UHGV virus genome: UHGV-1689020
Origin: a virus
Length of the DNA stretch: 18,879 nt
Strand: one strand, 5' to 3'
A model generated the notes under the pieces. The model did not search any database. It saw nothing but the letters and a program-made list of their open reading frames with translations, and was not told the origin of the DNA. Positions within the stretch are counted from its first letter, which is position 1; each line of letters starts with the position of its first letter. A program made the translations under genes and the position numbers. This document shows, in pieces, positions 1 through 8,195 of the stretch.

Positions 1-44
1 ATTCCCCATTATACGCGCGTATAATGGGGAATTATGTGCTGATT
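1..44. repeat. telRL: telRL/telO-like protelomerase target site (telomere resolution palindrome); left outer arm cut off by the window start
   Basis: nt 1-32 ATTCCCCATTATACGCGCGTATAATGGGGAAT is a perfect 32-bp palindrome centred on CGCG; the core CATTATACGCGCGTATAATG matches my recollection of the N15 telO core; nt 33-44 TATGTGCTGATT looks like the right outer repeat whose inverted partner would lie left of position 1; sits directly upstream of a protelomerase gene. Confidence 0.8.
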
Positions 45-207: not shown

Positions 208-2121
208 ATGAGCAAAGTAAAAATCGGTGAATTAATAAACTCACTTGTTAGCGATGTTGAGTCAATAGATAACTCTGACCGTCCTCAAGGGGAAAAAACA
301 AAAAAAATAAAGGCTGTTGCATTAAAATTTAAAAATGCATTATTTAATGATAAGCGAAAGTTTAGGGGGAAAGGATTAGAAAAAAGAATTACAGCCAACA
401 CCTTCAATGCCTATATGAGCAGGGCCAGAAAACGGTTTGATGATAAACTTCATCATAGCTTTGAAAAAAATATACATCGCCTATCTGAAAAGTATCCTTT
501 ATATAATGAGGAGCTATTGTCATGGCTTTCTCTACCTGCTGCCGATATTCGCCAGAGAATGTCAGCTTTACAGGCAAAATTAAAATTAATTCTCCCTTTA
601 TCAGAAGATTTATCTAATATCAGAATTGGTGATAACAAAAGTCATAATAAGTTATTAAAATTATCAAATAAATATAAAGAGTGGCAATTCGCCATATCTG
701 ATTTAACTAGCGATAACTGGAAAGATAAGCGCGATTATTTATATAAATTACTACAGCAAGGATCTGCCTTACTTGAGGAGTTGAATCAGCTAAAAGTTAA
801 CCATGAGATTCTCTATCATCTTCAACTAAGCCCTGCCGAACGCGCATCTATCCAGCAACGATGGGCGGACGTTCTGCACAATAAGAAACGTAACGTGGTG
901 GTCATTGATTACCCTAAATATATGCAAGCTATTTACGATATTATAAATAGCCCTGCTACATTAAATAATCTAAACACTCGTTCAGGTATGGCTCCTTTGG
1001 CATTTGCACTTGCTGCATTGTCAGGAAGACGAATGATTGAGATTATGTATCAAGGTACATTTACTGTTTCTGGTAAGTATACCGTTGATTTTTTAGGCCA
1101 AGCAAAAAAAAGAACTTCTGATGATATAACCAGAAAAATATATACATTATGCGAAGCAAAAACATTTGTTTATTTAATAAATGTACTTCGCTCATGCCCA
1201 GCAGCATCTGATTTTGATGATGTCGTTAAAGGTTATGGAGATAACGACACACGCTCTGAAAACGGACGGATTAATGCCATATTAGCAAAGGCTTTTAACC
1301 CGTGGGTTAAATCATTTTTCAAAGATGACCGCCGTGTTTATAAAGATAGTCGTGCTATTTATGCCCGTATTGCGTATGAAATGTTTTTCCGCGTAGATCC
1401 TCGTTGGAAAAACGTAGATGAGGATGTTTTCTTTATGGAAATTTTAGGCCATGACGATGAAAACACTCAATTACACTATAAGCAATTCAAGCTGGCCAAC
1501 TTCTCAAAGACATGGAGGCCAAATACTGGAAACGAAAATACCAGGCTGGAAGCATTGCAGCAGCTTGATGACGAAATGCCAGGATTCGCCAGAGGAGATG
1601 CCGGGGTTCGTCTGCATAACACAGTTAAGCAGCTGGTAGAGCATGACCCCTCTATAAAAATCACGAACAGCACTCTAAGAGCATTCAAATTTAGCCCTAC
1701 AATGATTAGTCGATACCTGGAATTTGCTGCTGATGCTCTGGGGCAATTTGTTGGCGAAAATGGACAATGGCAGCTGAAAATAGATTCTCCAGAAATCGTT
1801 ATGCCTGACGAAGAAGAGCTGGAAGCAATACCTGAACAGACGGATGAATTATCAGAGGATGACGATCTGGATGACGACGAAATTGAGATAGAGGAAGAGG
1901 AAGAGGAAGAGGAAGAGGAAGAGGAAGAGAGCGTAGAAGAACAGCAACCGCCCGCGCCTTCTTCACCTGTATCTAAGCCGGTATTTAAGCCTGTGAGAAA
2001 TATTGGTGATGGCTCATACGTTGTTGAGTTTCATTATAATGGCCAGAATTATGCTTGGTCCGGCAGTGCAAACAGCCCTATATCAGCAATGCAGTTAGCA
2101 TGGCTGACATATTTCGGATAA
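208..2121 (+). CDS. telN: protelomerase (telomere resolvase), N15 TelN-like
   Basis: 637-aa ORF; N-terminus MSKVKIGELIN...FNDKRKFRGKGLEKRITANTFNAYMSRARKRFDDKLHHSF and long internal stretches match my recollection of N15 TelN nearly residue for residue; acidic C-terminal linker; AGGAGAGG Shine-Dalgarno before the ATG; adjacent to the telO-like palindrome. Confidence 0.93.
   Translation: MSKVKIGELINSLVSDVESIDNSDRPQGEKTKKIKAVALKFKNALFNDKRKFRGKGLEKRITANTFNAYMSRARKRFDDKLHHSFEKNIHRLSEKYPLYNEELLSWLSLPAADIRQRMSALQAKLKLILPLSEDLSNIRIGDNKSHNKLLKLSNKYKEWQFAISDLTSDNWKDKRDYLYKLLQQGSALLEELNQLKVNHEILYHLQLSPAERASIQQRWADVLHNKKRNVVVIDYPKYMQAIYDIINSPATLNNLNTRSGMAPLAFALAALSGRRMIEIMYQGTFTVSGKYTVDFLGQAKKRTSDDITRKIYTLCEAKTFVYLINVLRSCPAASDFDDVVKGYGDNDTRSENGRINAILAKAFNPWVKSFFKDDRRVYKDSRAIYARIAYEMFFRVDPRWKNVDEDVFFMEILGHDDENTQLHYKQFKLANFSKTWRPNTGNENTRLEALQQLDDEMPGFARGDAGVRLHNTVKQLVEHDPSIKITNSTLRAFKFSPTMISRYLEFAADALGQFVGENGQWQLKIDSPEIVMPDEEELEAIPEQTDELSEDDDLDDDEIEIEEEEEEEEEEEEESVEEQQPPAPSSPVSKPVFKPVRNIGDGSYVVEFHYNGQNYAWSGSANSPISAMQLAWLTYFG
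1891..1929 (+). repeat. (GAGGAA)n hexanucleotide tandem repeat encoding the poly-Glu tract of TelN
   Basis: six and a half perfect tandem GAGGAA units, translated as the E-run in ...EIEIEEEEEEEEEEEEEESVEE. Confidence 0.9.
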
Positions 2122-2132
2122 AGCATACGGTA

Positions 2133-2165
2133 AAGGCACCGAATTATCGGTGCCTTGTTGTGTGG
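2133..2165 (+). terminator. rho-independent terminator candidate after telN
   Basis: AAGGCACCGA-ATTA-TCGGTGCCTT, a 10-bp perfect stem with 4-nt loop, 12 nt after the telN stop, followed by GTTGTGTGG (T/G-rich, not a clean U-tract). Confidence 0.55.
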
Positions 2166-2166
2166 T

Positions 2167-2331
2167 CTACCTCGCCTGCCCCTTTTCGTCCTCATCCAAC
2201 TTTCTGATGGCCGTAGAATCAATACCCGCCGCCATACACACATCAGATGCAACAAACCACGGTTCGCCGTTAATCATCACTACACGAACCTGATGCTCTT
2301 CCTGAAAGGAAAAGACTGCTAACGCGCTCAT
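2167..2331 (-). pseudogene. truncated Bro-N/KilA-N domain antirepressor-like ORF (54 codons)
   Basis: hand translation of the minus strand gives MSALAVFSFQEEHQVRVVMINGEPWFVASDVCMAAGIDSTAIRKLDEDEKGQAR*; the F.F....VR....GEPWFVA.DV...G motif is the N-terminal signature of Bro-N antirepressor domains, but the ORF stops mid-domain; AAGGAGG upstream; its ATG overlaps the stop of the upstream ORF (ATGA); below the length cut-off of the supplied ORF track. Confidence 0.5.
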
Positions 2332-2561
2332 TCAGCCTCCTTATCGTGCAGCAATTGCGACGAGAGCGATGCTGAATAACCCTGTGCTTCGTGTGTTAGC
2401 TCACACGCAATTTGAAGGAGTTTCCCTGCTTCTGAGAGATAAATCGACGCCTCACAACTGGAGATTGTCCGATGGGCTGATGATACGAGCGCATAGACCT
2501 GAGCCAGACGTTCATCCAACGATTCCAGCAGGCCAACAGTGTTCATTTTTACCTGATTCAT
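2328..2561 (-). CDS. hypothetical small helical protein, middle gene of the anti-immunity-type operon
   Basis: 77-aa ORF; GAGGTGG upstream of the ATG; ATGA overlaps with both neighbouring ORFs indicate translational coupling. Confidence 0.55.
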   Translation of the reverse strand: MNQVKMNTVGLLESLDERLAQVYALVSSAHRTISSCEASIYLSEAGKLLQIACELTHEAQGYSASLSSQLLHDKEAE

Positions 2562-2722
2562 GCAGCCACCTCGCGCACCGGAATACGGGCAGACAATACC
2601 AGGACAAACCGGCTGGCGAACTGGCGACGAGCTTCCCGTTCAGATGACGCGATGGTGGAAAGATGATGGATGTGTGACTTTTTGTCTGTGCGAACGATTG
2701 CCGCAAATTTGAATTTGAACAT
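2558..2722 (-). CDS. small basic protein, possibly Icd-like (first gene of the anti-immunity-type operon)
   Basis: hand translation MFKFKFAAIVRTDKKSHIHHLSTIASSEREARRQFASRFVLVLSARIPVREVAA* (54 aa); GGAG 9 nt upstream of the ATG; stop overlaps the ATG of the next ORF; not in the ORF track (below cut-off); the Icd assignment is from position and faint similarity recalled from memory only. Confidence 0.45.
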   Translation of the reverse strand: MFKFKFAAIVRTDKKSHIHHLSTIASSEREARRQFASRFVLVLSARIPVREVAA

Positions 2723-2770
2723 GGTATGCACTCCGTTTAATTGGTCGTGCTACCACCAGAGTTCCTACGC

Positions 2771-2940
2771 TCTATATGGCGGTAGCCCAGACGGGGGTAG
2801 GAATACCGGTAAACGAAGAAACCGGCCAGCTAAAAGCTGCCCCATCTGAGCCACCATAAATTTGGTGTACGCAGATTTTACACACAAAAAAACACGCTGG
2901 CGCGTGTTGTGCGCTTCATTTACTCGGGTTCCTACGCCCG
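2771..2940 (-). ncRNA. candidate C4/CI/CA-like antisense regulatory RNA and leader region
   Basis: on the minus-strand transcript, GGGCGUAGGAACCC (from + 2926-2939) and GAGCGUAGGAAC (from + 2761-2772) are direct repeats flanking UUCCUACCCCC (from + 2793-2803), which is complementary to both (10/11 and about 9/11); an intrinsic terminator lies between the first repeat and the complementary element; exact RNA ends unknown. Confidence 0.3.
2881..2908 (-). terminator. rho-independent terminator inside the leader of the anti-immunity-type operon
   Basis: minus-strand reading AACACGC-GCCA-GCGTGTT followed by TTTTTTTGTGTG (7-bp GC-rich stem, 4-nt loop, U-tract). Confidence 0.55.
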
Positions 2941-2967
2941 GCTACGGGATTTACCGTAGCGGAGTAA

Positions 2968-2997
2968 ACTTTACCGTCAAAACGACGCGCACGTCAA
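2968..2997 (-). promoter_or_regulatory. candidate sigma70 promoter for the leftward anti-immunity-type operon
   Basis: minus-strand TTGACG (from + 2992-2997), 18-nt spacer, TAAAGT (from + 2968-2973); -10 is weak, so the call is tentative. Confidence 0.3.
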
Positions 2998-3016
2998 TAA
3001 TTTGCAAAGACATTTT

Positions 3017-3036
3017 ACCCCGTGACCAGTCACGGG
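3017..3036. promoter_or_regulatory. palindrome family B copy 1 (CCCCGTGAC-CA-GTCACGGGG), operator-like site upstream of the candidate promoter
   Basis: 20-bp 9-2-9 palindrome; its core CGTGAC-NN-GTCACG recurs at 7574-7587 and 14960-14973; lies between the stop of the 3099-3386 gene and the candidate -35. Confidence 0.6.
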
Positions 3037-3098
3037 GACAGGTGTTTTTATAGTTTGCTTGAACGAGTGATCAGAAGTTGATCGTTAATCAAAGGCCA

Positions 3099-3386
3099 TT
3101 ATTGATTAAGAGATTGGAAATACCTAACTAACTTACCGGCATCATCACATTTTTCTTTATCTTCGTCCTTAACATAGCCGCGACAAAAGGCTGAATAAAA
3201 TTTTGCATTTTCAGAAGCAAAAGCAGCCGTCGAAAGGAGCAGCTCTTTGCATGACTCTTTTGATGCAGCATCGGGATTATTTTTACATGCAAGGTCCGCT
3301 GATGAGTTAATAACAGAAATGCTATCTTCCTGGGCATAAACCGCAGCAGAAAAGGCAAAACATAAAACAAAAATAAAACTCTTCAC
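3099..3386 (-). CDS. small secreted or periplasmic cysteine-containing protein, function unknown
   Basis: ORF in track as 3099-3410; preferred start is the GTG at 3384-3386, preceded by AGGAGA at about 7 nt; predicted signal peptide MKSFIFVLCFAFSAAVYA then QEDS...; mature part of about 76 aa with 4 Cys. Confidence 0.6.
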   Translation of the reverse strand: MKSFIFVLCFAFSAAVYAQEDSISVINSSADLACKNNPDAASKESCKELLLSTAAFASENAKFYSAFCRGYVKDEDKEKCDDAGKLVRYFQSLNQ

Positions 3387-3413
3387 TTTATCTCCTGTAA
3401 CAGTCATCACAAT

Positions 3414-4199: not shown

Positions 4200-7100
4200 T
4201 TACCCAAAGAAAGCGCCCTGCTCTTCGTAGCTGCATGAGCTATTCCCCGTAATGTATTCACGTAACCGCCGCAGCTCATTGCTGGAAAGGTGATCCATGA
4301 ACTCTGTGAGGTACAGAGATGCAAACGTCATAGCTATGCTGGCTGATGACCATGATGACATAGTGGCCAACTCCTCACTGGAAAGCGCACTCATCGCCCA
4401 GGACTCAGGTACAGCCACTGGCAACACGGCCAAAGCCTCAGAAATTACTGAATGAGGGGCGTTTTGAACCTGCTCGTTTGTGGATCGCGTTTTATCATCC
4501 ATATATATATTGAGATCCAAATCGCGATCCATTTCGATGGCTGTCTTCTCGGCTTTACGCGTTTTTAGGGTTAGGCCATCTTTCTGACGCTGAACAAGAA
4601 TATCCAGCATAAATGCCGCTGATTCAGGCTCAACAAAACGCAAGGTTGGACGCTTATCGCCGTCTCTGCCGCGACGTTTACCTGTTTTAAGGCCAAGAGA
4701 GTCGCAAATGTTTTTAAACAACGCTTCCGGCACTTTAGGCTTCCCTTTTGGCGTCATAAAACCACCAATGTGCAGAACGTTATTCAACAGGTCACGGCGT
4801 TCGGCTGTCATGAGGTTATCTCGAGCGAATTTGAGACGCTCCTGAGTCGCCTCGCCGGTCATAGTCTCAGGGTTGATACCGCAGTCGATAAAGTACTGCC
4901 GGAGAGTTGCTGATTTAAGCGCATAGAAACCGCGCGCCCCGACTTCAACAGTAGGAGTAGCTTTTACCTTGTGATCGATTATTCCAGGGAATTTAGTTTT
5001 AAAGACATCATCAGCCTGCTCGCGAGTCATCGCGGTCACTACAAAATATTGCCACTGTCCCGCCTGACGGTATGCGTAGGTAAAATTGATGGCTGCTTCT
5101 TCCCGGTCGTAACGACGAGCTGTTACCTCATCTAAAAGCATTGTTTCATAGCGGCGAACTTTGTCTCGAGCACCATCGAAATAGAATTTCAGCGTGCCTT
5201 CTTCAACCGGTAGTTTCAGTTCGTTTTCAATATCCCAGCGGACAAGTTTTGCCTGTTCTTCAAGCGTCAGCGCGCGTTTTTTTAGCAGTTTTTCACGCTC
5301 TGATTCTTGTGGAGTTTCTGTATTGAGGTGCAGATCCAGTGTCTGTTCCCACACAATATCCCGCGCTTCTTTACGCAGATCTTTACCGATATCATTCGCA
5401 GCATAATCGGTGGCCAGCGGTGATACCTTATAACCGTCGCTGTGCATGATGCAGATCATGTTGCTGGCGTAGTCGTTACGCGCAGTCGCTTCAATTGCGG
5501 CTGCTTTAATTTTCATCCTGGTAAAGTCGGTATTGGCCACCCCCATTGATATACGGTCGCCATCGAAAACGACATCCGTAAGTTCACCGTTCATACCTGC
5601 GGTAGCAAGCAATGCCTGGGCGAATGCTCGTTCTATTTTTTGCGGGTCAGTTTCACGTTTTGCACGAGCTTTATCAAAGCCGATAATAAATTCTTTTGCT
5701 GTACGGTCGCGGCGTAGCATTTGCACTGCGTCGCTGGGTACAACTTCACCACAGAACATGCCGAAATGACGGTCAAAATGTTTTTGCTCAATCGACACGC
5801 CGGATGAAATAGACGGGCTATAAATCAGGCCGTCGTATTTTTTGACCATCTTTTTCGGTTGATTGGTAAATGCTTCAACTTCTGGCTCTGGTTTGTTTTT
5901 CTGGTTTACACACAGAAATTTCTTACCAGGAAAATGCATTCTCAGGGTGGCTGTCACATCTTCTGCAAAGGTGGAGCTGTCGGTGGCCAACATGATTTTT
6001 TCGCCATCCGATACAGCTTTCACCACCTCGGTCATGATGCGATCTTTTTCTGTATAAAAAACCCGGATTGGCTCACCTGTTTCGCGGTTGCGAACATCAA
6101 CAGGTAATTCAATTACGTGGATCTGCAGCCATGCCGGTAAACCTAGTTCTTCACGGCGTTTCATAGCCAGTTCAGCCAGGTCAACCAGCAGATCGTTCGC
6201 ATCAGCATCCACCATTATTGGGTGTTGTTCCGTTCTGGCCAGCGCGTCAATTAGCGTATTGAATACAGCCACTGGGTTTTCCATAGCCCGACCGGAAAGA
6301 ACGGCACGTAGCCCTTGTGTGGCCTCGTCAAAGCCAAAATAGTCGTGCTGGCGCATCAACGGTTGCCAGCAGTTTTTAACAATCGAGTTTATGCAGATGG
6401 TCAGTTTACTGGCGTATGGAGCCATTTCCTGATAGCCAGGGTCCTGATAGTGCAGGATATCGGCTTTTACACCTTTTCCTTCTGTCATCATTTCCCACAG
6501 GCCACCAATAAGGGAGACACGGTGAGCAACAGAGATACCACGTTCTGAGCTATGCATTAACGGTCGTAACAATCCAGTAGATTTGCCGGAACCCATACCA
6601 GCACGGACGATGACTATCCCCTGTAGTGATTGCACGTACTTCAGGAGATCATCGGTCATTACCGAAGTTTCAAAACGCTTATAGGTGATATGTTGAGGGC
6701 GTTTATTGGGATCAGTTATGCGTTCGCTGAAAGAGCGCGGAGCCTGGGCAATACGGCACTTTTTATTCAGGCGACGGGCAATGTGGTCTTTTACCGTAGC
6801 GCGATAGATATTTTCCAGTCCCATTTCACGCAGAACGATGCAGAACATGTTAAATAAATCTGACGGACTGTTAGGAACCGGGCAGGTTAGCATGCCAATA
6901 TCCACCGCTCTCAGCAGCTCTTTGGCAAAAGTACGACGGTTATCCCGCTTAATTGTCTTCAGGCGGTTGAGCGTCAGAGATAGCAAATCAGTACCGGTTT
7001 TCAGGCGGTTTGCTGTTGCAAATAGTTGACGTGCTGTTTCACGAAGTCCACGTAGTTTGTGCAGGTCGTTGAAGTCACTGCACTCCATTTGCGGATCGTC

Positions 7101-8195
7101 TTCAAAAGTTGGATAGACGCAGCGGACATCGTTGAATTTCGATAAGATTTCATAGCCAGTCCGCAGGCCGGTATTCCCTTTTCCTTCTGTGGCAGATTTC
7201 CGGTCATTATCCAGTGCGCAGGTGATTTTTACCGCCGGGTACATGTTTACCAGTTGTTCCACAACATGAACCATGTTGTTAGCGGATACAGCGACAACCA
7301 CAGCGTCAAAGCGTTTATCTTTTTTCGTGGCAAGCCAGATGGATGCACCAGTAGCAAAACCTTCTGTAACAGCGATGTTTTGCGCCCCTTTCAGCTCACC
7401 GATAACAAAGCAGGCACCGACGAAATCGCCGCTGGTTACTGCGCTGGTCTGGTATTTCCCACCTTGTTTGTCGATTCGCTGCCAACCCACAATACGACCA
7501 TCGTAACGACCGTCCAGGTGAGCCAGAGGGATAGCCATATATGTGGTTGGTCCCCGACTCCATTTCGCACTGTCGTGACTGGTCACGCGACGCACATCAC
7601 ATGAACTAAAAACGTCACGAATACCTTTTTTAATCGCATATGGCCATGAGCCGTCTTCAGCCGGAGCATGTTCCCACGCGCTGTGGAATGCCAGCCATCC
7701 CAGCAAACGTTCATGGTCCATTTGGTTGTTTTTCAGGTCATTAATTCGTTTTTGTTCTTCACGGCGACGACGTGCTTCGGCCTGACGTTCTATTCTTTCC
7801 CGTTCTTCTTCCGGTTGTGCGACCACGGTCGCATTATTCCGTTGTTGCTCACGGCGATATTCAGAAAACAGGAAGGAGAAACCGCTCCATGAGCCAGCAT
7901 CGCTGCCTTTATGGACGAAGTTAATGAACGGGTAATCAATCCCTTTGCTGTGTTCCAGCCGGGAGTAAATTTCTACGCGTCCTTTCAGGCTCTTTTCGAG
8001 AGCTTCTGGAGATGTTTTATTGTATGAAGAGTAACGCTCAACCCCCCCGCGAGGGTTGAGTTGGATGTTGTCGGAACAGGCAGGCCAGTTGATACCAGCC
8101 ATCTGTGCCAGCTCGGTTAGTTCATCCCGTGCTGCTTCAATTAGCGAGAACGGATCGCTGCCAAAGCGATCCGCATAGAAATCGTTTAATGTCAT
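4200..8195 (-). CDS. repA: multifunctional replication protein RepA (primase-helicase), N15 RepA-like
   Basis: 1331-aa ORF; Walker A motif GMGSGKST in the central part; size, orientation and position between telN and cB match N15 repA as I recall it (about 1300 aa). Confidence 0.88.
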   Translation of the reverse strand: MTLNDFYADRFGSDPFSLIEAARDELTELAQMAGINWPACSDNIQLNPRGGVERYSSYNKTSPEALEKSLKGRVEIYSRLEHSKGIDYPFINFVHKGSDAGSWSGFSFLFSEYRREQQRNNATVVAQPEEERERIERQAEARRRREEQKRINDLKNNQMDHERLLGWLAFHSAWEHAPAEDGSWPYAIKKGIRDVFSSCDVRRVTSHDSAKWSRGPTTYMAIPLAHLDGRYDGRIVGWQRIDKQGGKYQTSAVTSGDFVGACFVIGELKGAQNIAVTEGFATGASIWLATKKDKRFDAVVVAVSANNMVHVVEQLVNMYPAVKITCALDNDRKSATEGKGNTGLRTGYEILSKFNDVRCVYPTFEDDPQMECSDFNDLHKLRGLRETARQLFATANRLKTGTDLLSLTLNRLKTIKRDNRRTFAKELLRAVDIGMLTCPVPNSPSDLFNMFCIVLREMGLENIYRATVKDHIARRLNKKCRIAQAPRSFSERITDPNKRPQHITYKRFETSVMTDDLLKYVQSLQGIVIVRAGMGSGKSTGLLRPLMHSSERGISVAHRVSLIGGLWEMMTEGKGVKADILHYQDPGYQEMAPYASKLTICINSIVKNCWQPLMRQHDYFGFDEATQGLRAVLSGRAMENPVAVFNTLIDALARTEQHPIMVDADANDLLVDLAELAMKRREELGLPAWLQIHVIELPVDVRNRETGEPIRVFYTEKDRIMTEVVKAVSDGEKIMLATDSSTFAEDVTATLRMHFPGKKFLCVNQKNKPEPEVEAFTNQPKKMVKKYDGLIYSPSISSGVSIEQKHFDRHFGMFCGEVVPSDAVQMLRRDRTAKEFIIGFDKARAKRETDPQKIERAFAQALLATAGMNGELTDVVFDGDRISMGVANTDFTRMKIKAAAIEATARNDYASNMICIMHSDGYKVSPLATDYAANDIGKDLRKEARDIVWEQTLDLHLNTETPQESEREKLLKKRALTLEEQAKLVRWDIENELKLPVEEGTLKFYFDGARDKVRRYETMLLDEVTARRYDREEAAINFTYAYRQAGQWQYFVVTAMTREQADDVFKTKFPGIIDHKVKATPTVEVGARGFYALKSATLRQYFIDCGINPETMTGEATQERLKFARDNLMTAERRDLLNNVLHIGGFMTPKGKPKVPEALFKNICDSLGLKTGKRRGRDGDKRPTLRFVEPESAAFMLDILVQRQKDGLTLKTRKAEKTAIEMDRDLDLNIYMDDKTRSTNEQVQNAPHSVISEALAVLPVAVPESWAMSALSSEELATMSSWSSASIAMTFASLYLTEFMDHLSSNELRRLREYITGNSSCSYEEQGAFFG
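4481..4531. other. candidate replication origin element inside the 3' part of repA
   Basis: 9-bp inverted repeat TGGATCGCG ... CGCGATCCA flanking a 33-bp AT-rich spacer containing (AT)5 and three GATC sites within about 50 bp; the N15 ori is reported to lie within the 3' end of repA (recalled from literature). Confidence 0.35.
7574..7587. repeat. palindrome family B copy 2 (CGTGAC-TG-GTCACG), inside repA coding sequence
   Basis: exact 14-bp core shared with 3019-3034 (inverted centre) and 14960-14973. Confidence 0.6.
7818..7833. repeat. palindrome family A copy 1 (TGCGACC-AC-GGTCGCA), sopC/centromere-like, inside repA coding sequence
   Basis: 16-bp 7-2-7 palindrome identical to copies at 10261-10276 (inverted) and 16787-16802; differs from the F sopC SopB site TGGGACCACGGTCCCA (recalled) at one position per arm. 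Confidence 0.65.

What the first reader, a model, noticed from the sequence alone, without database searches (positions are those of the whole stretch)
2558..3036. Anti-immunity-type locus with an antisense-RNA-style leader (seqA/seqB/seqC-like complementary elements flanking a terminator)
On the minus strand a candidate promoter is followed by a hairpin, a GGGCGUAGGAACCC element, an intrinsic terminator, a complementary UUCCUACCCCC element, a second GAGCGUAGGAAC copy about 40 nt before the ribosome-binding site, and then three translationally coupled ORFs. This layout parallels the P4 CI RNA, P1 c4 and N15 CA RNA systems, where a small processed RNA pairs with repeated targets to control an icd/ant operon. 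Here the sequences and spacing are specific to this element, and the final gene is a truncated Bro-N fragment.
Basis: partly seen in the sequence, partly recalled or inferred. Interest (0 to 1): 0.7.

Follow-up and report, generated by a model that had tools for sequence, protein, structure and literature searches.

The report
N15-type antisense-RNA anti-immunity locus
This is the secondary-immunity ("anti-immunity") locus of an N15-like linear phage-plasmid of E. coli, in which a small C4/CA-type RNA carried in the operon's own leader most likely pairs with two matching loops to keep a cell-division inhibitor and an antirepressor switched off. It is a real but already well-described kind of switch.

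Summary
The window is an N15-like telomere phage-plasmid (protelomerase, repA, telRL half-site). The flagged region is the ortholog of the N15 immA/cA locus: 77% nucleotide identity, Icd 93% and AntA 66% identical.

Rfam places two families above their gathering scores on the minus strand. They are an IsrK/seqA-type leader RNA ending in the intrinsic terminator (2960-2887) and a C4 antisense RNA (2861-2775). N15, phiKO2 and P4 give the same pair in the same order.

GTAGGAA occurs only three times in 18.9 kb. These are seqA (2939-2926), its complement seqB (2803-2793) and seqC (2772-2761). Across 32 distinct N15-like leaders the three elements co-vary in five discrete specificity classes (0/500 shuffles), which is strong evidence for RNA-RNA pairing.

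Three corrections apply. The recognition sequence is not unique to this element, because phiKO2 has the same class, and the spacing is the family's. The truncated Bro-N gene is the auxiliary antB, cut by a ~735-bp deletion shared by a sublineage, while icd and the antirepressor gene antA are intact. SeqC lies 26 nt upstream of the SD, so the layout is P4/N15-like rather than P1-type RBS occlusion.

Verdict: new member of a known kind, low novelty.

The parts
2968..2997 (-). Promoter Pa-like: -35 TTGACG, 18-nt spacer, -10 TAAAGT
   Evidence: It is the only promoter-like site in 2100-3150. The -35 hexamer is invariant and the -10 is conserved in the N15-like leaders. Function is inferred.
2887..2960 (-). 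IsrK/seqA-type leader RNA: hairpin 1, a seqA-presenting hairpin and an intrinsic terminator
   Evidence: Rfam isrK RF01394 scores 62.5 bits against a gathering score of 50. Hairpin 1 carries compensatory changes. The same hit occurs in N15, phiKO2 and P4.
2926..2939 (-). seqA (GGGCGUAGGAACCC); the core CGUAGGAA sits in an 8-nt loop
   Evidence: Loop unpaired probability is about 0.9. It co-varies with seqB.
2886..2908 (-). Intrinsic terminator (AACACGC-GCCA-GCGUGUU plus U7)
   Evidence: Found by the terminator scan. It is invariant across relatives. The same position is annotated as a putative rho-independent terminator in N15 and phiKO2.
2775..2861 (-). C4-family antisense RNA (CA RNA ortholog): a closing stem and two hairpins
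   Evidence: Rfam C4 RF01695 scores 73.6 bits against 45, full length. Internal hairpin 1 has 13-14 double-sided compensatory changes per pair.
2793..2803 (-). seqB (UUCCUACCCCC); UAUUCCUA is single-stranded in the junction of the C4 fold
   Evidence: Unpaired probability is at least 0.9. It co-varies with seqA and seqC.
2758..2773 (-). seqC hairpin AGAG[CGUAGGAA]CUCU (contains GAGCGUAGGAAC, 2772..2761)
   Evidence: It co-varies with seqB.
2721..2756 (-). Conserved hairpin pairing GUGGU.GCAC with part of the SD (GGAG 2734..2731) and the AU of the start codon
   Evidence: RNAalifold consensus with a few compensatory changes. Its regulatory role is inferred.
2558..2722 (-). icd-like gene (54 aa)
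   Evidence: NCBIfam NF033153 phage_ICD_like, E 1.3e-18. It is 93% identical to N15 Icd.
2328..2561 (-). antA-like gene (77 aa), ATGA overlap with icd
   Evidence: It is 66% identical to N15 gp31. It hits PHROG 10889 'anti-repressor'. The phiKO2 homolog is annotated 'similar to antirepressor N15 AntA'.
2167..2331 (-). antB' : truncated Bro-N gene (54 aa), ATGA overlap with antA; deletion junction at about 2180-2182
   Evidence: Pfam Bro-N, E 4.8e-7. Full-length homologs are 256-266 aa. About 735 bp are missing relative to YDC107_1.
2133..2156 (.). Hairpin AAGGCACCG-AUAAUU-CGGUGCCUU between the convergent antB' and telN genes; a likely shared terminator
   Evidence: Read directly from the sequence. 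Partly picked up by the terminator scan. Function is inferred.

Best explanation
The region is the immA (secondary immunity, or anti-immunity) operon of an N15-like linear phage-plasmid. It is controlled by a C4/CA-type antisense RNA encoded in its own leader.

Proposed working:
1. A constitutive sigma-70 promoter (2997..2968) starts a leader.
2. Most transcripts stop at the intrinsic terminator (2908..2886). This gives a ~75-nt IsrK/seqA-type RNA that displays seqA in an 8-nt loop.
3. Read-through transcripts carry the 87-nt C4-type RNA (2861..2775), which is excised as a stable small RNA.
4. Its single-stranded seqB (UAUUCCUAC) forms kissing duplexes with the identical 8-nt loops seqA (upstream) and seqC (26 nt before the SD of icd) on transcripts from the same promoter.
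5. This prevents expression of the translationally coupled icd-antA-antB' genes. The likely route is premature termination or polarity, helped by a conserved hairpin that already sequesters the SD and AUG.
6. The prophage repressor is therefore not antagonised, and an incoming phage of the same seqB class is held in check. Elements of another class escape.

Shown here: the element anatomy, family membership, orthology, and pairing supported by covariation. Inferred from P1, P4, N15 and Gifsy-1 work: RNA processing, the direction of regulation (repression), and the step at which expression is blocked.
For: - Rfam: C4 scores 73.6 bits against 45 and isrK 62.5 against 50, adjacent on the minus strand. 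The same pair in the same order occurs in N15, phiKO2 and P4.
- Orthology and synteny: 76.8% nucleotide identity to the N15 region carrying cA. The locus lies between repA-side genes and telN, as in N15. Icd is 93% and AntA 66% identical. There is an Icd-like NCBIfam hit.
- Pairing: all three GTAGGAA sites of the window lie here.
- Covariation: in 32 distinct leaders, seqA/B/C fall into five classes that change together. Columns 41-43, 181-183 and 219-221 each show three pair types with at most one unpaired cell. The covariation score is 0.39-0.45 against 0.10 in shuffles (0/500), and it drops when partners are slid by 1-3 columns. Further classes in Serratia, Buttiauxella and Ewingella obey the same rule.
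- Duplex energies: cognate seqB-target pairs are the most stable in every row of a 5x5 matrix.
- Accessibility: the seqA loop and the seqB junction are predicted unpaired, with p of about 0.9.
- Leader stability: the whole leader folds far better than shuffles, z = -6.1.
- Literature: the N15 antirepressor is negatively regulated by the small processed CA RNA. IsrK and C4 are the seqA RNA and CI RNA of P4, and similar systems exist in P1, P7 and N15. In Gifsy-1 an ~80-nt RNA is processed from the read-through of the isrK promoter.
Against: - No expression data exist for this element. Promoter activity, terminator read-through, processing and repression are all inferred.
- SeqC does not overlap the SD, so the step that blocks expression is not evident from the sequence.
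- Nearest-neighbour cofolding cannot model the kissing complex and gives only -3 to -4 kcal/mol net.
- In Gifsy-1 the homologous short leader RNA activates downstream translation rather than repressing it. The sign of the seqA contribution is therefore uncertain.
- I could not obtain the primary N15 paper, so the N15 mechanism is known to me only through secondary citations and memory.
- antB is truncated, so part of the output is lost.
Confidence: 0.85

Rival explanations
1. IsrK-type positive control is the dominant logic. The abundant short leader RNA (2960..2887) acts in trans through seqA on the seqB region of read-through transcripts. It opens an inactive long-range seqA:seqB structure, or titrates the C4-type RNA, and so activates translation of icd-antA. 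This is not exclusive of the main model.
For: - The short leader matches Rfam isrK above its gathering score.
- In Gifsy-1, short IsrK binds the read-through isoform and switches on its translation. The middle part of IsrK pairs in cis with the downstream region that overlaps the C4-like STnc1160.
- The minimum-free-energy fold of this whole leader contains exactly such a cis seqA:seqB helix.
Against: - In N15 the small RNA from this locus is reported as a negative regulator of the antirepressor.
- The equal conservation and covariation of seqC is not needed for a pure seqA-sponge model.
- The Gifsy-1 target ORF (orf45) overlaps the C4-like RNA, whereas here that frame is closed.
Confidence: 0.25
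2. It is a purely cis-acting leader. SeqA, seqB and seqC are alternative intramolecular pairing partners of an attenuator, and no trans-acting small RNA is made.
For: The single-molecule fold predicts seqA:seqB pairing in cis, and the leader is unusually stable with z = -6.1. Covariation alone cannot tell cis pairing from trans pairing.
Against: - The 87-nt segment has the complete, independently folding C4 architecture with compensated hairpins.
- Homologous RNAs in N15 and P4, P1/P7 and Gifsy-1 (an ~80-nt species) are described as small or processed trans-acting RNAs.
- The intrinsic terminator separates seqA from seqB in most transcripts.
Confidence: 0.05
3. The immunity factor is a protein: the 'cA secondary immunity repressor' / gp32 / 'ash family protein' ORF annotated across this region in N15 and some E. 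coli plasmids.
For: GenBank U63086 and AF064539 annotate a ~100-aa CDS running from inside the C4 region into icd. PGAP calls an 'ash family protein' in related plasmids.
Against: - In this window the same frame has two stop codons between the C4 region and the icd ATG, whereas N15 has none.
- Conservation follows RNA helices with compensatory changes, not codons.
Confidence: 0.02
4. The complementary elements are a chance coincidence next to an ordinary terminator.
For: A 7-mer is expected about 1.4 times by chance in the window, and 38 of 200 shuffles gave at least 3 matches.
Against: - All three copies lie within 174 nt in the required orientations.
- Five or more co-varying classes are seen in relatives, with 0/500 shuffles reaching the observed score.
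- Two Rfam families score above their gathering thresholds.
Confidence: 0.01

Closest known systems
Phage-plasmid N15 immA locus (cA/CA RNA, icd, antA, antB)
   Same: - Same genomic position, between the repA-side genes and telN.
- Same promoter, leader hairpin, seqA loop, terminator, C4-type RNA, seqC hairpin and SD hairpin, with the same spacing.
- Icd is 93% and AntA 66% identical.
- The same Rfam C4 and isrK hits.
   Different: - The recognition sequence belongs to another class. N15 has CUCUCAAC / GUUGAGAA / UUCUCAAC, and this element has GUAGGAA / UUCCUAC / GUAGGAA. Heteroimmunity at this locus is therefore predicted.
- antB is 264 aa in N15 and a 54-aa stump here.
Klebsiella phage phiKO2 icd-antA-antB leader
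   Same: Same architecture and the same specificity class: seqA CGUAGGAAC, seqB UUCCUAC, seqC UGUAGGAAC. It gives Rfam C4, isrK and c4-a1b1 hits.
   Different: Only 74% nucleotide identity. The host genus differs. antB is not truncated as it is here: its annotated CDS runs beyond the fetched stretch, spanning 783 nt in record coordinates.
Satellite phage P4 immunity: CI RNA (seqB) with seqA and seqC
   Same: - Same three-element logic.
- The same Rfam isrK and C4 pair, in the same order.
- According to the literature, CI RNA is processed from the leader and pairs with seqA and seqC to cause premature termination.
- SeqC lies upstream of the first gene's RBS rather than on it.
   Different: - The downstream genes differ, with no icd/antA.
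- A longer spacer separates the terminator and the C4 RNA.
- P4 has specificity class GUGAGAA/UUCUCAC. That is class 4 of the N15-like set, not this element's class.
Phages P1/P7 c4 antisense RNA controlling icd-ant
   Same: The C4 Rfam family was founded on these RNAs. Targets lie upstream (a1b1) and downstream (a2b2), the regulated operon is icd followed by ant, and heteroimmunity arises from changed recognition bases (and my own knowledge of Citron and Schuster 1990).
   Different: - In P1 the downstream target covers the icd ribosome-binding site. Here seqC ends 26 nt upstream of the SD.
- The Rfam c4-a1b1 model scores only 34.3 bits here, below its gathering score of 46.7.
Salmonella Gifsy-1 IsrK / STnc1160 / orf45-anrP locus
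   Same: A short terminated leader sRNA (IsrK) is followed, in read-through transcripts, by a processed ~80-nt C4-like RNA and an antirepressor-type gene. The authors call IsrK a structural homolog of P4 seqA RNA. The isrK Rfam model hits here.
   Different: It is a lambdoid chromosomal prophage. The demonstrated effect of short IsrK is activation of translation, through orf45, of AnrP and indirectly AntQ. Here no orf45-like frame is open across the C4 RNA, and the downstream genes are icd and antA.

Membership tests
Rfam C4 antisense RNA (RF01695; P1 c4 / P4 CI / N15 CA) | Covariance-model score at or above the curated gathering score, over the full model length | tested here: met
   73.6 bits against 45, model positions 1-87 of 87, at 2861..2775(-).
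Rfam C4 antisense RNA (RF01695; P1 c4 / P4 CI / N15 CA) | A long closing stem enclosing two hairpins, with a single-stranded antisense segment between hairpin 2 and the closing stem | tested here: met
   The minimum-free-energy fold reproduces it, with UAUUCCUA unpaired at p of at least 0.9. Helices are supported by compensatory changes.
Rfam C4 antisense RNA (RF01695; P1 c4 / P4 CI / N15 CA) | Complementary target sites both upstream and downstream of the RNA on the same transcript | tested here: met
   SeqA is at 2939..2926 and seqC at 2772..2761. Three-way covariation is seen in 32 leaders.
Rfam C4 antisense RNA (RF01695; P1 c4 / P4 CI / N15 CA) | The mature RNA is produced by processing of the operon's leader transcript and represses the downstream operon | not testable with these tools
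   This needs Northern blots, end mapping and reporter assays. It is reported for the N15, P4 and Gifsy-1 homologs.
IsrK / P4 seqA RNA (Rfam RF01394) | Covariance-model score at or above gathering; three hairpins, the last being an intrinsic terminator with a U-tail | tested here: met
   62.5 bits against 50 at 2960..2887. The terminator is confirmed by an independent scan.
Rfam c4-a1b1 (RF03163, upstream targets of C4) | Covariance-model score at or above gathering | tested here: not met
   34.3 bits against 46.7 at 2973..2921, E 4e-7 in a 411-nt search. Relatives L026, L051, L011 and L048 pass. The match is a recognisable homolog that falls below the curated cut-off.
N15-type immA operon | Gene order icd - antA - antB downstream of the leader, translationally coupled, between the replication-side genes and telN | tested here: met
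   Synteny is shown. ATGA overlaps are visible in the sequence. The 54/76-77/256-266-aa pattern is typical of the related loci; 33 of the 48 have a third ORF of 256-266 aa.
N15-type immA operon | Intact auxiliary antirepressor AntB (Bro-N protein of about 260 aa) | tested here: not met
   Only 54 aa remain. There is a ~735-bp deletion with its junction at about 2180-2182.
P1-type c4 mechanism (direct occlusion of the icd RBS) | The downstream target overlaps the Shine-Dalgarno or start codon of the first gene | tested here: not met
   SeqC ends at 2761, and the SD GGAG is at 2734..2731, leaving a 26-nt gap. A separate conserved hairpin covers the SD and AUG.

The most novel reading that the evidence does not exclude
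The 7-8-nt seqA/seqB/seqC 'address' defines a small set of RNA immunity classes that are shared across unrelated mobile elements. This element and phiKO2 share one class, and satellite P4 shares another with several N15-like phage-plasmids. C4-type RNAs could therefore mediate cross-immunity or cross-derepression networks between phage-plasmids, satellites and prophages in one cell. Class switching would occur by exchange of the whole ~200-nt leader cassette. The widespread antB-deleted sublineage would show that AntB is dispensable for the switch.
Probability: 0.3. Interest if true: 0.45.

Novelty: new member of a known kind. Interest (0 to 1): 0.2.

Why it matters
The finding matters mainly for annotation. 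It shows that unannotated 'intergenic' DNA in N15-like E. coli plasmids is a two-RNA regulatory leader, and that the 'cA/ash/gp32' protein annotations over it are probably artefacts.

The class table gives a simple sequence-based prediction of which telomere phage-plasmids, and which P4-like satellites, should be homo- or hetero-immune at the secondary immunity locus. It holds five classes among N15-like elements, with more in other Enterobacterales. That prediction could be tested directly and is relevant to co-residence and competition of phage-plasmids. It does not open a new mechanism.

Tried and rejected
- Primary papers: I tried to read Ravin et al. 1999, Mardanov and Ravin 2007, and the phiKO2 genome paper. 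None is held, so mechanistic details for N15 come only from secondary citations.
- Cofolding: RNAcofold of the C4-type RNA with the short leader and with the mRNA 5' end gave uninformative dimers with ddG of -3 to -4 kcal/mol. Loop-junction kissing cannot be represented without opening helices. I used local duplex energies instead.
- Genome scan: a scan of species-representative genomes with AGAG-N8-CTCTGGTGGTAG returned mostly chance hits in unrelated phyla. About 280 are expected for 16 specified bases in 596 Gb. Only about 9 Enterobacterales loci were real.
- Antiterminator: I looked for one competing with the intrinsic terminator. Only a 4-bp GCGC/GCGC alternative exists, and it is not compensated in L022 or L027. 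I rejected it.
- Extended pairing: I considered that GGUGGUAGC after seqC extends the seqB-seqC duplex. The order of the complementary blocks is not colinear, so I rejected this. That segment instead forms the SD/AUG hairpin.
- Weak hits ignored: a Pfam LtuB hit to Icd (18.8 bits, below its cut-off of 25) and an Rfam Chloroflexus-1 hit (16.8 bits against 181.5).
Full report
**What the window is.**
- The 637-aa ORF at 208..2121(+) carries all four protelomerase (TelK/TelN) Pfam domains. The 1331-aa ORF at 4200..8195(-) is a primase/origin-binding RepA-type protein.
- The first 32 nt of the window are a perfect palindrome. Its core, CCCATTATACGCGCGTATAATGG, equals the centre of the N15 telRL site.
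- The 1-kb stretch around the finding is >=99.7% identical to six 27-51-kb E. coli plasmids. It is 92.8% identical to phage PhiR46_1, 76.8% to N15 and 74% to phiKO2.
- The element is therefore an N15-like linear phage-plasmid (Ravinvirus-like).
- The finding lies where N15 has its secondary immunity locus immA/cA, between the repA-side genes and telN.

**Check of the observation.** Reading the minus strand, every listed element is there:

| Element | Coordinates (minus strand) | Source |
|---|---|---|
| Promoter TTGACG-18-TAAAGT | 2997..2968 | |
| Hairpin 1 | 2960..2941 | |
| GGGCGUAGGAACCC (seqA) | 2939..2926 | |
| Terminator AACACGC-GCCA-GCGUGUU plus U7 | 2908..2886 | |
| UUCCUACCCCC (seqB) | 2803..2793 | |
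| GAGCGUAGGAAC (seqC) | 2772..2761 | |
| SD GGAG | 2734..2731 | |
| ATG | 2722 | |
| ORF 1 | 2722..2558 | |
| ORF 2 | 2561..2328 | |
| ORF 3 | 2331..2167 | |

- The three ORFs are linked by ATGA overlaps.
- GTAGGAA or its complement occurs only three times in the 18,879-nt window. All three lie within 174 nt here, in the orientations described.
- The whole leader folds much better than shuffled versions, with z = -6.1.

**What it is.**
- Rfam places two families above their curated thresholds, side by side on the minus strand. C4 antisense RNA scores 73.6 bits against 45 at 2861..2775. IsrK scores 62.5 bits against 50 at 2960..2887.
- The corresponding regions of N15, phiKO2 and satellite phage P4 give the same two hits in the same order.
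- The literature equates these families with the P4 elements. IsrK-like RNAs are 'seqA' and C4-like RNAs are 'CI RNA', with structurally similar systems in P1, P7 and N15.
- ORF 1 is an Icd-like protein (NCBIfam NF033153, E 1e-18; 93% identical to N15 Icd).
- ORF 2 is the AntA homolog (66% identical to N15 gp31; PHROG 'anti-repressor'). The phiKO2 record labels its homologs as icd, antirepressor AntA and auxiliary antirepressor AntB.
- ORF 3 is the N-terminal 50 residues of the Bro-N protein AntB plus a short tail.

**Evidence that the three elements pair.** I collected 48 loci encoding a close Icd relative from IMG/VR and aligned 32 distinct leaders. SeqA, seqB and seqC fall into five discrete classes, and all three elements change together.

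| Class | seqA | seqB | seqC | Where found |
|---|---|---|---|---|
| 1 | CGUAGGAAC | UUCCUAC | CGUAGGAAC | this window and others |
| 2 | CUCUCAAC | GUUGAGAA | UUCUCAAC | N15 |
| 3 | UCGCAAU | AUUGCGAA | UUCGCAAC | IMG/VR loci |
| 4 | CGUGAGAAC | UUCUCAC | CGUGAGAAC | IMG/VR loci |
| 5 | UUGGAACC | GUUCCAA | UUGGAACC | IMG/VR loci |

- For both seqA:seqB and seqB:seqC, the three central pairs each show three different Watson-Crick types, with at most one unpaired cell.
- The covariation scores are 0.39 and 0.45, against about 0.10 in column shuffles. None of 500 shuffles reaches them, and they collapse when partners are slid by 1-3 columns.
- More distant chromosomal loci in Serratia, Buttiauxella/Dryocola, Ewingella and Symbiopectobacterium carry yet other sequences that obey the same rule.
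- Local duplex energies are best for the cognate combination in every row of a 5x5 matrix. One near-tie exists, between the class-5 RNA and class-1 targets.
- SeqA and seqC are each presented as an identical 8-nt loop on a 4-bp stem. SeqB lies in the single-stranded junction of the C4 fold. All are predicted unpaired with p of about 0.9, which is the geometry expected for kissing interactions.

1. The sequences are not specific to this element. phiKO2 has the same class (seqA CGUAGGAAC, seqB UUCCUAC, seqC UGUAGGAAC). P4 has class 4. The spacing is invariant across the family.
2. The truncated last gene is antB, annotated in phiKO2 as the auxiliary antirepressor. Icd and AntA are intact.
3. The truncation is a ~735-bp deletion relative to phage YDC107_1, with its junction at about 2180-2182 and 3 nt of overlap.
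4. The 54/55-aa form recurs in 10 IMG/VR loci carrying four different specificity classes. It is also the form annotated (BRO-N domain-containing protein, single-piece match) in the E. coli plasmids that align over the full query; 17 records cover at least 80% of the query, though two of those listed match in two pieces. Other relatives have 256-266 aa. It is therefore a lineage trait, not an assembly accident.
5. SeqC ends 26 nt upstream of the SD, so the P1 arrangement, in which the target lies on the RBS, does not apply. Instead, a conserved hairpin (2756..2721) pairs part of the SD and the AU of the start codon, immediately 3' of the seqC hairpin.
6. The reading frame annotated in N15 as 'cA secondary immunity repressor'/gp32 contains two stops here. 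This argues that the conserved product is RNA.

**How it most likely works.**

Shown here:
- the anatomy of the elements;
- family membership and orthology;
- pairing supported by covariation.

Inferred from homologs:
- Transcription starts at the conserved promoter.
- A large fraction stops at the intrinsic terminator and yields the IsrK/seqA-type RNA.
- Read-through transcripts contain the C4-type RNA, which is processed to a stable small RNA. This is reported for N15 CA RNA and P4 CI RNA and seen as an ~80-nt species in Gifsy-1.
- Its seqB pairs with seqA and seqC of transcripts from the same promoter and prevents expression of icd-antA-antB'. The antirepressor therefore stays off in the lysogen, and incoming genomes of the same class are held in check.
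- The exact blocked step is not determinable from sequence. It could be premature termination as described for P4, or a translational block with polarity through the SD hairpin.
- From memory only, P1 c4 and P4 CI are matured by RNase P. I could not verify this here.

**Rival explanations.**
- *IsrK-type activation.* In Gifsy-1 the short leader RNA activates translation of the read-through isoform by competing with a cis helix between the IsrK middle part and the downstream C4-like region. The minimum-free-energy fold of this leader contains exactly such a cis seqA:seqB helix. A sponge or activator role for the short RNA is therefore a serious, non-exclusive alternative. I give it about 0.25 as the dominant logic.
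- *Cis-only attenuator.* It is disfavoured by the self-contained C4 fold and by the homologs.
- *Protein 'CA'.* It is disfavoured by the closed frame.
- *Chance.* It is excluded by the covariation.

**Comparison and novelty.**
- The locus passes the membership tests for Rfam C4 and isrK and for the N15-type immA operon, except that antB is not intact.
- It fails the curated cut-off of Rfam c4-a1b1 (34.3 bits against 46.7).
- It fails the P1-type RBS-overlap criterion.
- It is best described as a new member of a known kind: an N15 immA/CA-RNA locus of the phiKO2 specificity class, in an antB-deleted E. coli lineage.
- The modest added value is a five-class table for N15-like elements, plus further classes elsewhere, and the observation that classes are shared with P4. 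This predicts homo- and hetero-immunity relationships that can be tested.
- Interest is low (0.2). A specialist would recognise the system at once.

Noticed in passing
window 1-43: The window begins with a perfect 32-nt palindrome, ATTCCCCATTATACGC|GCGTATAATGGGGAAT. Its core, CCCATTATACGCGCGTATAATGG, matches the centre of the N15 telRL telomere-resolution site, whose cut falls at the dyad. Only 16 nt lie to the left of the dyad, so the source contig may start at, or read through, a hairpin telomere of the linear prophage.
   Followed up: partly
window 3018-3037 (both strands): A 9+9-nt palindrome, CCCCGTGAC-TG-GTCACGGGG, lies about 20 nt upstream of the -35 of the leader promoter. It is conserved in N15-like relatives, with one compensated variant (L035: CCTGTGAC/GTCACAGG) and several one-sided changes. 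It could be the terminator of the upstream operon or a protein operator for the promoter. I did not resolve this.
   Followed up: partly
window 3099-3410 (-): The ORF just upstream of the leader promoter has an N-terminal signal-peptide-like segment (KSFIFVLCFAFSAAVYAQ) and no Pfam or NCBIfam hit. Its homolog in phage PhiR46_1 is annotated 'Spackle exclusion protein'. It may be a superinfection-exclusion gene sitting next to the RNA immunity locus.
   Followed up: no
L052 (phage P4, NC_001609 7696-9203) versus L011, L023, L025, L033-L035 and L043: Satellite phage P4 carries exactly the same seqA/seqB/seqC recognition sequence (CGUGAGAAC / UUCUCAC / CGUGAGAAC) as one class of N15-like phage-plasmids. 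This suggests possible RNA-level cross-immunity between unrelated elements.
   Followed up: partly
L001 2745-3035 and L053 413-715 (N15 GenBank records); related E. coli plasmids H7-H14: The annotated proteins 'gp32', 'cA secondary immunity repressor' and 'ash family protein' overlap the C4-type RNA. The corresponding frame is interrupted by two stops in this window. These CDS calls are probably annotation artefacts over an RNA gene plus the short icd.
   Followed up: yes
L131 (NZ_BSEJ01000047.1, 686-nt contig labelled Microbacterium barkeri): A 686-nt contig in an actinobacterial assembly carries a typical N15-like class-3 leader and the start of icd. It is most likely enterobacterial phage-plasmid contamination of that assembly.
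   Followed up: no
window 2133-2156: A 9-bp hairpin, AAGGCACCG-AUAAUU-CGGUGCCUU, sits between the convergent antB' and telN genes, just downstream of the deletion junction. It probably serves as a shared or bidirectional terminator.
   Followed up: no
L007/L009, L018/L020, L028/L029, L031/L032, L039/L041 (pairs of loci from single IMG/VR contigs): Several IMG/VR contigs contain the immA locus twice in opposite orientation, for example at both ends of a 92-kb contig. This pattern is what one would expect if assemblies of linear hairpin-ended prophages are read through the telomere into an inverted duplicate.
   Followed up: no
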